Assembly: GCA_050250375.1 (NCBI GenBank)
Contig: JBFWOS010000001.1
Span: forward strand, 830,361 to 894,360
Reading direction: 5' to 3'
DNA: 64,000 nt
Source: Candidatus Omnitrophota bacterium
GTDB taxonomy: Bacteria; Omnitrophota; Gorgyraeia; Zapsychrales; Zapsychraceae
This document shows positions 47,842 through 52,248 of this stretch, piece after piece. A model generated the notes under the pieces. That model saw only the letters and a program-made list of their open reading frames with translations, was not told where the DNA came from and ran no database searches. Every line of letters begins with the position of its first letter. Position 1 is the first letter of the stretch. A program made the translations under genes and the position numbers.

Positions 47842-48342
47842 TTAGCGGTTAACCGAATTTTGAACCGGACGGGTACGGATCATGATTTCAACGGCCGCCA
47901 AAGGCAAAAAACTCAGCCAGACAAAGAGCGGATACCAGAAATCAAAATTCATTTTATAATCCGCCCGGGTGCATGTCTCCAGAAAAATAATAAAAAGCCT
48001 CAGGGCCGGCGCGGCCAAGACCAGCGCGTAACTGCGTATCATCCAGCGCTGATGTTCGGTGATCTTTTTTGCCCTGATGCGTTGATACGCCAGTCCCGTA
48101 AACACAAACCACAGCGCCGACTGCAAGGCTGTCCCGGCCGCGGCCAGGGCCAGGTCCGTTTTAAACGAAATGATCAAACCCGTCGGCGCGCTCACACATA
48201 CACACAAAATATATGTCTTTCCCATCAGCCGGTGAAAGTTAAGGGCGTGACGCCTGATCCAGGGAATAAACTGCCACGGCCCCACGAAAAACGTGATCAC
48301 CCCGGTGATGATATGGACCATCTCAATTAACGAATAATGCAT
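47842..48342 (-). CDS. DUF2306-like membrane protein
   Basis: Four TM helices whose pattern resembles DUF2306. Confidence 0.45.
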   Translation of the reverse strand: MHYSLIEMVHIITGVITFFVGPWQFIPWIRRHALNFHRLMGKTYILCVCVSAPTGLIISFKTDLALAAAGTALQSALWFVFTGLAYQRIRAKKITEHQRWMIRSYALVLAAPALRLFIIFLETCTRADYKMNFDFWYPLFVWLSFLPLAAVEIMIRTRPVQNSVNR

Positions 48343-48351
48343 GACTTCATT

Positions 48352-48681
48352 CTATTTTCTGGGCAGGCTTGAATTGAAATTCACCGCGTATTCCACCCAT
48401 TTCTTTAACGCCGCCGGGGTCCCGGTCCCTTCTGCAGACACATAGATCATGCCTTTCATCGGCCGGCCGGTAAAGTCCATCTTGCGCGCGTGCGGTTTTT
48501 TCAAGAGCCCCTCATACTGGTCAGGCCCGACCCGCAGCATCAGATCATCCTTAACGATACCGCAGCACATATGCCCGCGCAGCATAAAACACATCCCGCC
48601 GAACATCTTATGCTCGATGTATCCCGGCTTATCCTTCATAATTTCCCGGACCCGCAATGCCAATTTTTCGTCGTAGGGCAT
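48352..48681 (-). CDS. TfoX N-terminal domain protein
   Basis: 109 aa with a KMFGGMCFMLRGHMCCGI core like TfoX_N. Confidence 0.55.
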   Translation of the reverse strand: MPYDEKLALRVREIMKDKPGYIEHKMFGGMCFMLRGHMCCGIVKDDLMLRVGPDQYEGLLKKPHARKMDFTGRPMKGMIYVSAEGTGTPAALKKWVEYAVNFNSSLPRK

Positions 48682-48776
48682 TTAGAATTTCCCTTCCGTT
48701 TGCCTTGCTATTATATGCACGGATTAATTTAATTCAAGGATCTGACAATTAAAGGAAAAATTCATAATCTAACGAC

Positions 48777-49265
48777 TCATTTATCTCTTTCCTTAATTTG
48801 TTCCGCCTTTGCCAGGACTTTCTGAGTCCAGTTCAAATCATCAGAATTGACAACAATGACATCGAAACCAAATCGGGCTCCATCGGAAATAAATGACTCC
48901 TGATCATCTACATGTAATTTAAAACCAAATTTTGAAGGATATTTGGAAGGCAATGGTATTTTCCGATTGCCAATCACCTCTCTTACATGAATGGGTTGAT
49001 TGACCACCTTCACTAAAGACACACCATAAAACTTAAAAAACCTTTTAACAGAACTTACCGAACGAAAAGAAGTTGTATAAATTGCAATTTGCCATCCCTG
49101 ATCCGTTAACCTCCGCATTAATTCAACTGTTCCCCGCCTTAATGGTTCTTTGTAAAAAAGACGCCAAATAAAGGGTACTCGAGTGGCTTCTTTGGGGACT
49201 TCACTATCTAAGCAGATCAAAGTGTCATCTAAATCAAAAGATATGATCATAGTTTTTTTATTCAA
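48777..49265 (-). CDS. HAD-superfamily hydrolase-like protein
   Basis: N-terminal DxDxT motif (ISFDLDDTL). Lower GC than the flanks. Confidence 0.45.
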   Translation of the reverse strand: MNKKTMIISFDLDDTLICLDSEVPKEATRVPFIWRLFYKEPLRRGTVELMRRLTDQGWQIAIYTTSFRSVSSVKRFFKFYGVSLVKVVNQPIHVREVIGNRKIPLPSKYPSKFGFKLHVDDQESFISDGARFGFDVIVVNSDDLNWTQKVLAKAEQIKERDK

Positions 49266-50427
49266 TTAGCCCTGACCGCTCCGGCGGCCAATAGATTTTA
49301 AAAACTTTACCCTTAACGTTTTCCTCTGGGACAAATCCCCAATAACGGCTGTCATGACTTTTAGCGCTATTGTCCCCTAGGACAAAATAATGTCCCGTCG
49401 GCACAGTGACAGGCCTCTGTCCGTAATATCCGTTAGCATAGTAGTCAATAGATTTTATCCTGGGATCCATAATCAACTCGCCGTTAATATAAATATCGTC
49501 ATTCTTTATCTCAACCTTTTCGCCCTCAAAGGCGATGAGTCGTTTTATAAAATCACGCCTCTTGTCTTCAGGATAAATAAATACGATTAAATCTCCGCGT
49601 TGCGGTGCCGATTCTTTATAAATCCTTTTATCTACCAATATTCTGTCGCCTACTAATAAAGTCGGCGACATTGATCCGGCTGGAATTTTATAGGCTTGCA
49701 CAATATTCTTTCTGACATACATTGTCACCGGAAGGCTAATAACCATCGGCATAATAAATGCAAACACAATCCCACAAATGAGAAACTTTTTGTTGTATCC
49801 AGCGAATCGGCTTTCGAGATCATGAAGTTGATTAAATTTTGTAGAAGAAAAATATGCATCAACAATTATATACAACCTAAACAAAAATAAAGAAACAAGC
49901 AGAGCAATCAAAAAAAGATTGGATTTGGTTTCAGGGAGAAAAATATAACCCGCCAGCGCATTGGAACAAACAACGCGGAGCACAAAAAACAGTATCCCTT
50001 TTTTAGGATACCCTGCATAGATTTGGCCCAACCCATCACAACAAAGACTTAAAATAATCGCCAATAAAGGTTCTTTTGGTTTTTGAACGATGCTTTTCTT
50101 CCAAGGTAAGAATCCCCAGATCTTTTCCCAGACTTGAAATGCATCACCCATCATCTCCAAACAAGCGGAGTCTTTTTCATCCCAGTTCACAAAGGTATAT
50201 TTTTTATTCTTATCGGATATTTTTTCTTCCAACAATCCATATAACTTCATTCCTACCGGTTTGATGGATTTGACTCTTGACACATTAAGGATCTTTACAG
50301 TGAATACTTTCTTGTTATAACCCCGGATGGTAATTTCAAGATACTTTCCTTTTTCACGGACTGAGATAATCGTCCCGTCGTGTATATCTTTCGGGCCGAC
50401 ATAATTTAAGTTTGGATTTTCCTGCAT
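49258..50427 (-). CDS. signal peptidase I catalytic domain fused to an about 115-aa N-terminal soluble domain and four TM helices
   Basis: SPase box B (IPAGSMSPTLLVGD), box D (FIKRLIAFEGE) and box E (VLGDNSAKSHDSRYWGFV). The N-terminal 250 aa, including four TM helices, is not a canonical LepB N-terminus. Confidence 0.65.
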   Translation of the reverse strand: MQENPNLNYVGPKDIHDGTIISVREKGKYLEITIRGYNKKVFTVKILNVSRVKSIKPVGMKLYGLLEEKISDKNKKYTFVNWDEKDSACLEMMGDAFQVWEKIWGFLPWKKSIVQKPKEPLLAIILSLCCDGLGQIYAGYPKKGILFFVLRVVCSNALAGYIFLPETKSNLFLIALLVSLFLFRLYIIVDAYFSSTKFNQLHDLESRFAGYNKKFLICGIVFAFIMPMVISLPVTMYVRKNIVQAYKIPAGSMSPTLLVGDRILVDKRIYKESAPQRGDLIVFIYPEDKRRDFIKRLIAFEGEKVEIKNDDIYINGELIMDPRIKSIDYYANGYYGQRPVTVPTGHYFVLGDNSAKSHDSRYWGFVPEENVKGKVFKIYWPPERSGLIE

Positions 50428-50437
50428 TGTTTTAACC

Positions 50438-51127
50438 TCAAGCCCAACTCAATCCATCAGGCAACGTGTAGTCGCTATACTCTAAATGAACAACTCGACG
50501 TTGAGCCGGTTTGTCCGCTTTGTTGGATGAATGAAGAACATGCGGGCGCATCAGGACCGCATCACCTCTTTCAACGATACAGGAAACGGAATCACGTTTA
50601 ACTTTCAGTTCATCAACTTGATTTTGAGTTAATATACCAAACTGATGTGATCTAGGAATTACCTTTAGACAACCGTTTGATTCATCGGCCGGGTCTAAAT
50701 GGATGCGGATCGTCACCATACGTTCCAGGACATTGATGTCCGGCTGGACATGTTGTACACCATCTTTGATGGTCCATGGCCCCCAGCCTGCTATGTCGGT
50801 TTGCCGGTCGACTGCGATCGTTTTGTCCTGATGCCATACAACACCCCAATTGGCCTCGCTTGTTTTATTAAAATAAATCGCCCTGACCATCTGGGGTTTT
50901 CCATTCAGCACCGTCTCAGCAAGGTCCAGAACTTTTGGGGAACGAGTCAAATGGTACACGGCCTTCACTTTTTTCTCCAAATTCCTTATACCGGAAACAG
51001 CGTCATTTCCTAAACACGATTTGATTTCTCTGCCAAGCAAATCCGCCTCGTCTTGATTCAAAAGATTCTTGAGAACAAAACATCCCTGTTCAACCAGATC
51101 CTTTTTTACGTTATTCTTCACGAGCAT
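50438..51127 (-). CDS. PhyH-family Fe(II)/2-oxoglutarate dioxygenase
   Basis: HxD...H iron triad (VVWHQDK... / RPHVLHSS) and overall PhyH-like length. Confidence 0.6.
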   Translation of the reverse strand: MLVKNNVKKDLVEQGCFVLKNLLNQDEADLLGREIKSCLGNDAVSGIRNLEKKVKAVYHLTRSPKVLDLAETVLNGKPQMVRAIYFNKTSEANWGVVWHQDKTIAVDRQTDIAGWGPWTIKDGVQHVQPDINVLERMVTIRIHLDPADESNGCLKVIPRSHQFGILTQNQVDELKVKRDSVSCIVERGDAVLMRPHVLHSSNKADKPAQRRVVHLEYSDYTLPDGLSWA

Positions 51128-51494
51128 TGGATATCCCTTTACCGTATTTCTTTAGAAACTCTTCTCTTATTTTTTTTGTTTTTTCTACATCTTCAATTTC
51201 TCTCGACATCGGTTCATCGGCCTGGTCTGTTTCGATAATCTTAATGACGATTTCATCCCCACACTTTAATTTTTGATGCTTGATCCAACGCAAATGTTCA
51301 TTCAACTTTTCACGATGTTGGGTTAATCCCCCAACAAAAATATCTATATTCACCTTATCTTTTACATAAACCGCGCCTTTTGATTCTTTGCCCAACGTTC
51401 CGACAGCTGATATTCCTGCATTTAGCCCCCCGAGGTCAGAACCGCCGGCAATAATCGGTTGATCATTATTCACTTGAACTTGAAGTGCAATCAT
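51111..51494 (-). CDS. small protein of unknown family, paralog 1 of a tandem pair
   Basis: Aligns over about 100 aa with the next ORF (I.AG..DL..L...S.....D....VGGL....EHL.WI.H..L...DE..I.I.E.D.AD.P). Confidence 0.5.
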   Translation of the reverse strand: MIALQVQVNNDQPIIAGGSDLGGLNAGISAVGTLGKESKGAVYVKDKVNIDIFVGGLTQHREKLNEHLRWIKHQKLKCGDEIVIKIIETDQADEPMSREIEDVEKTKKIREEFLKKYGKGISNAREE

Positions 51495-51825
51495 CTATTT
51501 GAGGCCTCCTCTTTTTGGGTAAATCCGCTTCATCCATTTCCAGAATTCTTATCTTTAGTTCGTCGTTTATATTTAATTCTCTATGCCCGATCCAATCCAG
51601 ATGTTCTCCCTGGTCACCATTCTGTGGCGCAGACAAACCCCCAACGTGTAGAAAAAAATCATCATTCTTTATTTTAGTAGGATGTATTTTCTTAAGATTG
51701 AAAGAACAGGACAAAATGCTACCTAAAACACACAAATCTTCTCTTCCGGCGATAACCAACCGTTCTCCATTTAATAGAATCTCAAATGCGATCATATCAC
51801 TCCCTAAATTTTTTTGATTCCCCAA
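51466..51825 (-). CDS. small protein of unknown family, paralog 2 of a tandem pair
   Basis: About 30% identical to paralog 1, with a divergent C-terminus ending ...CTSSSSE. Confidence 0.5.
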   Translation of the reverse strand: MGNQKNLGSDMIAFEILLNGERLVIAGREDLCVLGSILSCSFNLKKIHPTKIKNDDFFLHVGGLSAPQNGDQGEHLDWIGHRELNINDELKIRILEMDEADLPKKRRPQIDDCTSSSSE

Positions 51826-51880
51826 AATGCTTGATCAAGAACACTTCCTCACACTTCTATTTCTTGTTTTATTACTAATA

Positions 51881-52129
51881 TTATTTCGTATTACTCTTTT
51901 TTCTCAAATCTTTATTAAAGTAAACAATCGGAAGCAAAATCATCATGGTACCAAGGACAATGACGCTGATAACCGGATAAAGCGGCTGGCCTTTGAAATT
52001 GTCAACCGGTTCGCCGTATCTTCCTTGCATGATACTTGTCACTGCCCAAATAAAAGTCGGGATTGCGGCCAGCATGGTTAATATAAATCCTGCCCTGGAT
52101 AAGTATCTTCTATTCTTCTTAATACTCAT
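51881..52129 (-). CDS. small two-TM membrane protein, hypothetical
   Basis: 82 aa with two hydrophobic helices, at the head of the lower-GC operon. Confidence 0.4.
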   Translation of the reverse strand: MSIKKNRRYLSRAGFILTMLAAIPTFIWAVTSIMQGRYGEPVDNFKGQPLYPVISVIVLGTMMILLPIVYFNKDLRKKSNTK

Positions 52130-52248
52130 CAGCCTTCCCCATTAATCCACAAAAACAAACATTTTAGCGAAAAACATATTATAGATGGATTCTGGAAAAA
52201 TTGGTAGGCTGATTTGGCCGGAGGCCTGGTGAGAGGCCGTGATGGTTA

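What the first reader, a model, noticed from the sequence alone, without database searches (positions are those of the whole stretch)
51111..51825. Tandem paralogous 120-aa proteins of unknown family
The two adjacent ORFs start with MIAL/MIAF and align over about 100 residues, sharing AG..DL, VGGL, EHL.WI.H, DE..I.I.E.D.AD.P. Their C-termini differ (KKIREEFLKKYGKGISNAREE versus DDCTSSSSE). Conserved body with variable tail is reminiscent of precursor/substrate or toxin-immunity duplications. They sit directly upstream of, and overlap, a PhyH dioxygenase gene.
Basis: seen in the sequence. Interest (0 to 1): 0.7.

Follow-up and report, generated by a model that had tools for sequence, protein, structure and literature searches.

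The report
Paired paralogs of unannotated protein family
Two neighbouring small genes in an Omnitrophota genome are real, intact, ancient duplicates from a large bacterial protein family that no database describes and whose confidently predicted shape matches no solved structure. They probably work as a two-part unit, but their function is still unknown.

Summary
On the minus strand, ORF A (51466-51795, 109 aa) and ORF B (51111-51494, 127 aa) are paralogs (35% identity, E 6e-16). B overlaps a PhyH gene by 17 nt.

- A's odd tail (DDCTSSSSE) is only its 29-nt out-of-frame overlap with B's start.
- Across the family the tail is a conserved helix, not hypervariable.
- No gene recurs next to the family in about 45 independent loci. 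Signal peptidase never recurs. PhyH recurs once, as a barely related PhyH.

What is there:
- A stand-alone, cytosolic, roughly 100-aa all-beta domain with an optional C-terminal helix.
- It has 1173 clusters (50% identity).
- It has no Pfam, NCBIfam, PHROG or PADLOC model.

Most genomes carry one copy. An A-type followed by a B-type, translationally coupled, is conserved in three Omnitrophota-type loci. Eleven of the 150 listed cluster representatives fuse two copies in one chain. I infer that the working unit is a dimer, here an A/B heterodimer, and most likely a binding scaffold rather than an enzyme. The function was not shown.

The parts
51466..51795 (-). ORF A, 109 aa (MIAFEILLNG...). This is the 'A-type' paralog: short beta3-beta4 loop, G.LG motif lost, R60 lost, no C-terminal helix.
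   Evidence: identical to NCBI AB7S78_09795. Family HMM E 8e-34. A-type orthologs in L020 (49% by BLASTP; 54% over the aligned core) and L022 (44% / 48%).
51111..51494 (-). ORF B, 127 aa (MIALQVQVNN...). This is the 'B-type' paralog: long loop with G.LG, and a C-terminal helix at residues 103-126.
   Evidence: identical to AB7S78_09800. Family HMM E 2e-38. AF2 model pLDDT 91.4. B-type orthologs are P0007 (58% by BLASTP, 61% over the core) and the second gene of L022 (39% / 41%).
51800..51805 (-). Shine-Dalgarno-like AGGGAG, 4 nt upstream of A's ATG.
   Evidence: Read from the sequence.
51505..51513 (-). Shine-Dalgarno AAGAGGAGG for B. It lies inside the 3' end of A, 10 nt upstream of B's ATG.
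   Evidence: Read from the sequence.
51466..51494 (-). 29-nt overlap of A's end with B's start, in different frames. It encodes A's 'divergent tail' and suggests translational coupling.
   Evidence: The orthologous pairs in L020 and L022 overlap by 4 nt.
51111..51127 (-). 17-nt overlap of B's end with the start of the PhyH gene (50438-51127).
51880..51907 (-). Promoter-like site TTGAGA-16-AATAAT upstream of A. Weak candidate only.
   Evidence: The number of such sites in the region (9) is not above the shuffle expectation (9.7).
48600..52150 (.). Context: a low-GC islet (GC 0.36-0.43, flanks 0.48-0.58). It holds six tightly packed minus-strand genes: an 82-aa ORF, A, B, PhyH, an extended signal peptidase I, and a HAD-like protein.
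   Evidence: No flanking repeats and no tRNA.

Best explanation
A and B are two intact, anciently duplicated members of a large unannotated family of stand-alone cytosolic proteins. Each has a roughly 100-residue all-beta domain that starts at Met1, and many have one C-terminal helix.

Shown:
- The family is large.
- The predicted fold is confident and has no solved neighbour.
- Most genomes carry one copy, with no fixed neighbouring gene.
- An A-type gene followed by a B-type gene, overlapping and co-directional, recurs in three Omnitrophota-type loci.
- In other lineages two copies are fused into one polypeptide.

Inferred:
- The working unit contains two copies of the domain. That would be a homodimer in most bacteria, a pseudo-dimer in the fused proteins, and an A/B heterodimer here, made in equal amounts by translational coupling.
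- The nearly invariant residues are mostly glycines, core hydrophobics, an NG turn and a GD hairpin. Sequence and length variation is concentrated in two loops between conserved strands. The domain is therefore more likely a binding scaffold (protein or ligand binding, adaptor- or inhibitor-like) than an enzyme.
- Its job does not depend on the PhyH gene it overlaps.
For: - Paralogy: (E 6e-16).
- Family size: 1173 representatives at E up to 1e-3 and 306 at up to 1e-10; 278 clusters at 90% identity.
- No known family: Pfam on both proteins and on 107 members, NCBIfam on 120 members, PADLOC, PHROGs, PDB sequence profile.
- The domain starts at residue 1 in 231 of 266 proteins.
- Copy number: single copy in more than 40 loci; two copies only in the window, L020/L021 and L022.
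- Orthology within the pair: A-A 47-54%, B-B 41-61%, A-B 35-43% identity. A-types are monophyletic in 75 of 100 NJ bootstraps.
- L022 is from Candidatus Omnitrophica.
- Fused two-domain proteins: 11 of the 150 listed representatives.
- No recurrent neighbour in 44 loci.
- Conservation and loop variability.
Against: - Dimerisation is inferred from gene order and fusions only.
- The conserved polar residues N9, D20, E66-H67, D80 and D93 (numbering of ORF B) could form a metal or catalytic site.
- In this genome the pair sits in a compositionally distinct six-gene islet with overlapping junctions to PhyH and signal peptidase. A second family member (P0107) also lies next to a PhyH. A functional link to PhyH is therefore not excluded.
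- The AlphaFold database could not be searched, so 'no structural neighbour' covers only the PDB and BFVD.
Confidence: 0.45

Rival explanations
1. Orphan immunity- or inhibitor-type proteins. On this reading the family neutralises a toxin or effector delivered by other cells, and tandem paralogs and fused repeats broaden the specificity, as in homogeneous polyimmunity loci and polyimmunity proteins.
For: - The proteins are small and cytosolic, with a patchy spread across phyla.
- There is no fixed neighbour.
- Loops are variable on a conserved scaffold.
- Tandem copies and same-domain fusions exist.
- Several homologs lie in same-strand runs of small unannotated genes, once with a DMP19-like gene, and near GNATs, transposases or a PIN/HicB pair.
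- These features match those described for immunity genes in PMC3482391.
Against: - No toxin gene or toxin domain lies next to any of about 45 loci.
- No neighbour hit a known Imm, SUKH or SuFu model.
- The family matches none of the Imm Pfam models.
- The A/B pair is conserved as orthologs across lineages. That looks like a fixed two-subunit unit rather than rapid turnover.
Confidence: 0.15
2. Partner or substrate of the adjacent Fe(II)/2-oxoglutarate dioxygenase. On this reading PhyH hydroxylates a conserved residue of A/B, or A/B present a substrate to it, and the six-gene low-GC islet is one functional cassette.
For: - B overlaps PhyH by 17 nt. PhyH, signal peptidase and the HAD-like gene follow with a 10-nt gap and then an 8-nt overlap.
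- All six genes share a low-GC composition distinct from both flanks.
- In L049 a fused two-domain family member lies 63 nt downstream of another PhyH gene.
Against: - PhyH is absent from the other two A/B loci (L020, L022) and from all other loci.
- The two PhyH proteins are barely related: 25% over 67 aa, E 0.006.
- My rough estimate of one extra chance adjacency in about 45 loci is 0.1-0.2. This is an inference, not a computed value.
- The whole 25-kb stretch is co-directional and tightly packed, so an overlap carries little weight here.
Confidence: 0.12
3. Nucleic-acid-binding protein distantly related to S1/OB-type or PUR/Whirly-type domains. In those, two repeats also pair to form the functional unit.
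For: - There are weak recurrent matches of the L.VGDE..V.V.E.D hairpin to S1 domains: PDB profile E 0.06, NCBIfam GSP13 E 0.011, and one member hitting Pfam S1 at 7e-4.
- JGI names one member 'Rpb7'.
Against: - The match covers about 20 residues of a common hairpin motif.
- The core is net acidic in 61% of members, median charge -3.
- Only 1 of 107 members touches the S1 model.
Confidence: 0.08
4. Small metal-dependent enzyme or ligand-binding protein that uses the conserved N9, D20, E66-H67, D80 and D93 set.
For: These polar residues are 84-99% conserved and are kept in both the A and B types.
Against: - Most of them sit in turn or hairpin positions (NG, GD, AD.P) that are typical structural motifs. 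This is an inference from the secondary structure.
- There is no neighbouring pathway genes in any locus.
- R60 and T58 of the main clade are lost in A-types.
Confidence: 0.1
5. Ribosomal peptide (RiPP-like) precursors with a leader or body and a hypervariable core at the C-terminus.
Against: - The domain is folded, with pLDDT 91.
- A's tail is an overlap artefact.
- The family tail is a conserved helix or is absent.
- There is no conserved modifying enzyme or peptidase.
Confidence: 0.02

Closest known systems
S1 RNA-binding domain (PF00575; for example GSP13, PDB 2k4k; ribosomal protein bS1)
   Same: Shares a roughly 20-residue beta-hairpin motif, L.VGDE(V/I).V.V.E.D, around a Gly-Asp turn.
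Immunity proteins of polymorphic toxin systems, including homogeneous polyimmunity loci and polyimmunity proteins (Zhang et al. 2012, PMC3482391)
   Same: Small cytosolic proteins with a patchy distribution, variable neighbourhoods, tandem paralogs and same-domain fusions.
   Different: No adjacent toxin in any locus, no match to any Imm or SUKH model, and the A/B pair is stably inherited.
PH-like superfold (seven strands capped by a C-terminal helix) and bacterial PH domains
PUR repeat / Whirly-like domains (Pur-alpha, PDB 3k44)
   Different: A PUR repeat has four strands, not seven. There is no sequence similarity, and the score is not significant.

Membership tests
S1 domain / OB fold (PF00575) | Full-length match to the S1 profile above Pfam's gathering score | tested here: not met
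   No hit for A or B. One of 107 members hits at E 7e-4. The PDB profile match is limited to about 20 residues, E 0.06.
S1 domain / OB fold (PF00575) | Five-stranded OB barrel recognisable by structure comparison | tested here: not met
Polymorphic-toxin immunity proteins (Imm/SUKH/SuFu families, PMC3482391) | Match to a described immunity family model | tested here: not met
   No Imm, SUKH or SMI1 Pfam hit in A, B or 107 members.
Polymorphic-toxin immunity proteins (Imm/SUKH/SuFu families, PMC3482391) | Gene lies immediately downstream of a toxin gene, or inside an array of recognised immunity genes | tested here: not met
   No toxin gene or toxin domain was seen next to the family in about 45 loci. 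This rests on the precomputed Pfam labels of called genes in about 15 loci and on scans of selected neighbours. Scanned neighbours are mostly unannotated, with one DMP19-like and one ASCH protein.
Type II toxin-antitoxin pair | Two different proteins: a toxin fold plus an antitoxin, usually with a DNA-binding domain | tested here: not met
   A and B are paralogs of one fold. No PADLOC or Pfam TA family hit.
RiPP precursor peptides | Short unstructured peptide with a hypervariable core and a conserved cognate modifying enzyme | tested here: not met
   The model is confidently folded, pLDDT 91. The tail is a conserved helix or absent. PhyH is present in 2 of about 45 loci and signal peptidase in 1.
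Phage-encoded small proteins (PHROGs, IMG/VR, INPHARED) | Homologs on phage genomes or in viral families | tested here: not met
   No PHROG hit at E below 0.02, no phage record, and no IMG/VR locus.
ClpX-ZBD-linked adaptor (SspB-like logic) | Direct binding to the ClpX zinc-binding domain, or a conserved ClpX-binding tail | not testable with these tools
   The only lead is one member (P0107) fused to a ClpX-type C4 zinc finger, PF06689, E 8.9e-14.

The most novel reading that the evidence does not exclude
The domain is a previously unrecognised fold that works only as a two-copy unit. The Omnitrophota A/B pair would be its obligate heterodimeric form. The unit would act as an adaptor or regulatory subunit for another protein. 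Two candidates exist. One is Fe(II)/2OG PhyH-type dioxygenases, which sit next to family members in two unrelated loci. The other is the ClpX-type zinc-finger machinery, which is fused to one member. Either would make it a new class of small accessory protein.
Probability: 0.12. Interest if true: 0.7.

Novelty: categorically new. Interest (0 to 1): 0.42.

Why it matters
It adds a well-defined piece of protein 'dark matter'. The family has more than a thousand sequence clusters across Verrucomicrobiota, Omnitrophota, Betaproteobacteria and Desulfobacterales. Its predicted structure is confident, yet no domain model, solved structure or function exists for it.

The series of forms (single gene, conserved tandem pair, fused double domain) is a natural experiment on how a homodimer becomes a heterodimer. 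It also gives clear constructs for structural work.

The rating 'categorically new' means only that no known family or fold could be matched. No new mechanism has been shown, and many such orphan families exist, so the practical interest is moderate.

Tried and rejected
1. A first AF2 run with a 3-sequence alignment gave pLDDT 46 and was discarded.
2. The search for related loci with broad alignments failed for lack of a conserved stretch. A narrower alignment worked.
3. The afdb50 fold library was unavailable.
4. Internal duplication within the domain: hhalign of the two halves gave probability 0.2%, so this was rejected.
5. Phage origin: no hits in INPHARED, IMG/VR or PHROGs.
6. Plasmid carriage: only one Variovorax 800-kb replicon.
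7. A riboswitch or other RNA element near the pair: none.
8. Mobile-element borders of the low-GC islet: no flanking repeats and no tRNA.
9. Programmed +1 frameshift fusing A to B: considered because fused homologs exist. There is a TAG directly before B's ATG in B's frame, no recognisable slippery site, and the orthologous pairs use a plain 4-nt overlap. Rejected as unsupported.
10. Antisense ORFs (for example 51515-51817 on the plus strand) that look 'conserved' across loci are shadows of the coding strand.
11. A literature search for ClpX zinc-finger fusions with immunity proteins found nothing useful.

Full report
**Observation.** The finding lies on the minus strand.
- ORF A is listed mechanically as 51466-51825 from a TTG. 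The sequence shows an ATG at 51795 preceded by AGGGAG. That gives the 109-aa protein NCBI annotates as AB7S78_09795 in a Candidatus Omnitrophota MAG.
- ORF B is 51111-51494 (127 aa, AB7S78_09800). A strong AAGAGGAGG sits 10 nt upstream of its ATG, inside the end of A.
- BLASTP of A against B gives 35% identity over 111 columns, E 6e-16.
- The next gene downstream (50438-51127) is a PhyH-family protein (PF05721, E 2.2e-14), and B overlaps it by 17 nt.
One detail matters: A's 'divergent tail' DDCTSSSSE is encoded by the 29 nt in which A's frame runs across B's start. It is an overlap by-product, not a designed variable region.

**The family.**
- Neither protein hits Pfam, NCBIfam or PADLOC.
- Word-indexed searches found almost nothing.
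- An exhaustive HMMER profile search found 1173 cluster representatives at E up to 1e-3 and 306 at up to 1e-10. A profile-seeded search found 278 clusters at 90% identity, all named 'hypothetical protein'.
- Of 107 members scanned against Pfam and 120 against NCBIfam, none has a real family hit. PHROGs gave nothing.
- Named sources include Verrucomicrobiota (most hits), Chthoniobacteraceae, Luteolibacter, Desulfobacterales, Massilia sp. MB5, Variovorax, and Omnitrophota.
- The domain starts at residue 1 in 231 of 266 proteins. The median length of single-domain members is 129 aa.
- Conserved positions (ORF B numbering) are M1, N9, A16-G17, D20, L24, G32.LG35, G55-G56, H67, W70, G79-D80 and D93.

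**Structure.**
- With a 120-sequence alignment, AlphaFold2 gives pLDDT 91.4 and pTM 0.74. The model has seven beta strands (2-8, 14-17, 21-32, 48-58, 66-76, 82-88, 97-100) and a C-terminal helix at 103-126.
- A PDB sequence-profile search matches only a roughly 20-residue hairpin of S1 domains (E 0.06).
- The AlphaFold database could not be searched.
- There is no internal repeat.
- The order of secondary-structure elements recalls the PH-like superfold, and some low-Z hits are PH domains. This is a lead, not a result.

**Tail and variability.** It does not hold.
- 156 of 266 members have a 25-45 aa tail. A conserved helix motif, ER..FE.AK..Y..LK.KYE, is recognisable in 79 of the 277 domain sequences.
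- 64 members have almost no tail.
- B has a degenerate version of that helix. A-types lack it.
- The variable parts are the beta3-beta4 loop (2-23 residues) and the beta4-beta5 loop (2-11 residues).

**Genomic context.** I collected about 45 independent loci.
- The family HMM finds one copy in every locus except the window, L020/L021 and L022.
- An all-against-all BLAST of neighbours within 4 kb finds no gene family that recurs across independent loci. The only recurring items are the family itself and its antisense shadow ORFs.
- Neighbours are often small unannotated same-strand genes. Others seen are GNATs, transposases, a PIN/HicB pair, and once a DMP19-like protein.
- Signal peptidase never recurs.
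- PhyH recurs once. In L049 a PhyH gene sits 63 nt upstream of P0107. The two PhyH proteins share only 25% identity over 67 residues, E 0.006.

**The pair.** Tandem A-then-B is not an accident of this genome.
- In L020/L021 a 91-aa A-type overlaps the B-type P0007 by 4 nt. In L022 (Candidatus Omnitrophica) the A-type P0022 is followed directly by a B-type.
- Identities are A-A 47-54%, B-B 41-61% and A-B 35-43%. A-types are monophyletic in 75 of 100 crude NJ bootstraps.
- All A-types share the short loop, the VLG..LSC signature, loss of G.LG and R60, and the absence of the helix.
- The duplication therefore predates these lineages and both copies are maintained. Neither is a decaying pseudogene.
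- Independently, 11 of the 150 best representatives are single chains with two family domains.

**Interpretation.**
- Conserved adjacent paralogs with overlapping reading frames, together with recurrent same-domain fusions, are the classical signature of a unit that contains two copies of a domain. I infer a homodimer in most bacteria and an A/B heterodimer here.
- Most invariant residues are glycines, core hydrophobics, an NG turn and a GD hairpin, and variation is concentrated in two loops. I therefore favour a binding scaffold over an enzyme. This is an inference and nothing here tests it.
- An immunity-like role fits the distribution and the duplications, which parallel the polyimmunity loci and proteins of PMC3482391. 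It lacks any toxin neighbour or known Imm neighbour.
- A link to PhyH cannot be dismissed. In the window the pair belongs to a 3.5-kb low-GC islet (GC 0.36-0.43 against 0.48-0.58 on both flanks). The islet holds six tightly packed genes: an 82-aa ORF, A, B, PhyH, an extended signal peptidase and a HAD-like protein. A second PhyH adjacency exists in L049.
- Against that link, the other two A/B loci and all other loci lack PhyH. The 25 kb around the pair is uniformly co-directional and compact, so overlaps are weak evidence here.

**Novelty and score.**
- No sequence or structure resource available here places the family in a known kind, so I rate it categorically new as a family or fold.
- That says nothing about mechanism, and orphan families of this size are not rare.
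- A specialist would find the clean series of single-copy, tandem and fused forms, and the unmatched high-confidence model, worth a structural follow-up. It is not a major surprise. Interest is 0.42.

Noticed in passing
window 48600-52150: A 3.5-kb low-GC islet (GC 0.36-0.43 in 1-kb windows; flanks 0.48-0.58; window mean 0.463, sd 0.037). It coincides with six tightly packed minus-strand genes: an 82-aa ORF, A, B, PhyH, signal peptidase I and a HAD-like protein. No flanking repeats or tRNA were found, so its origin is unexplained.
   Followed up: partly
window 49258-50427 (minus strand): The signal peptidase I gene is unusually long at 389 aa. The S26 domain covers only residues 224-380. About 110 N-terminal residues are unannotated and apparently soluble, followed by hydrophobic segments with a weak TM2-domain hit.
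   Followed up: no
L049 15-2470 (JGI 3300055007 contig): P0107 is a 302-aa protein with two family domains plus a C-terminal ClpX-type C4 zinc finger (PF06689, E 8.9e-14). By eye there may be a second, degenerate zinc ribbon before it. It is flanked by a PhyH gene upstream and an aldo/keto reductase downstream.
   Followed up: partly
L023 (Variovorax sp. SRS16 plasmid 2, NZ_LR594667.1 264775-279152): The family member sits in a run of same-strand 'hypothetical protein' genes downstream of a WYL-domain gene. One of the run is DMP19-like (PF14300), and a SHOCT-domain gene lies at the far end. It looks like an accessory or defence-type island, but nothing in it is characterised.
   Followed up: partly
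window 51515-51817 (+) and equivalent positions in 16 other loci: Long antisense ORFs opposite the family gene appear 'conserved' in BLAST between loci. They are shadows of the conserved coding strand, not genes.
   Followed up: yes
window 47842-48681 (minus strand): Immediately beyond the islet lie a TfoX_N-domain protein (48352-48681, E 5e-15) and a DUF2306 membrane protein (47842-48342, E 7e-29). No link to the pair was seen.
   Followed up: no
L020 744-1001: In the orthologous A/B locus, the gene after B is an unannotated 85-aa protein with no Pfam hit, followed by convergent large membrane proteins. Nothing there resembles the window's PhyH, signal peptidase or HAD genes.
   Followed up: partly
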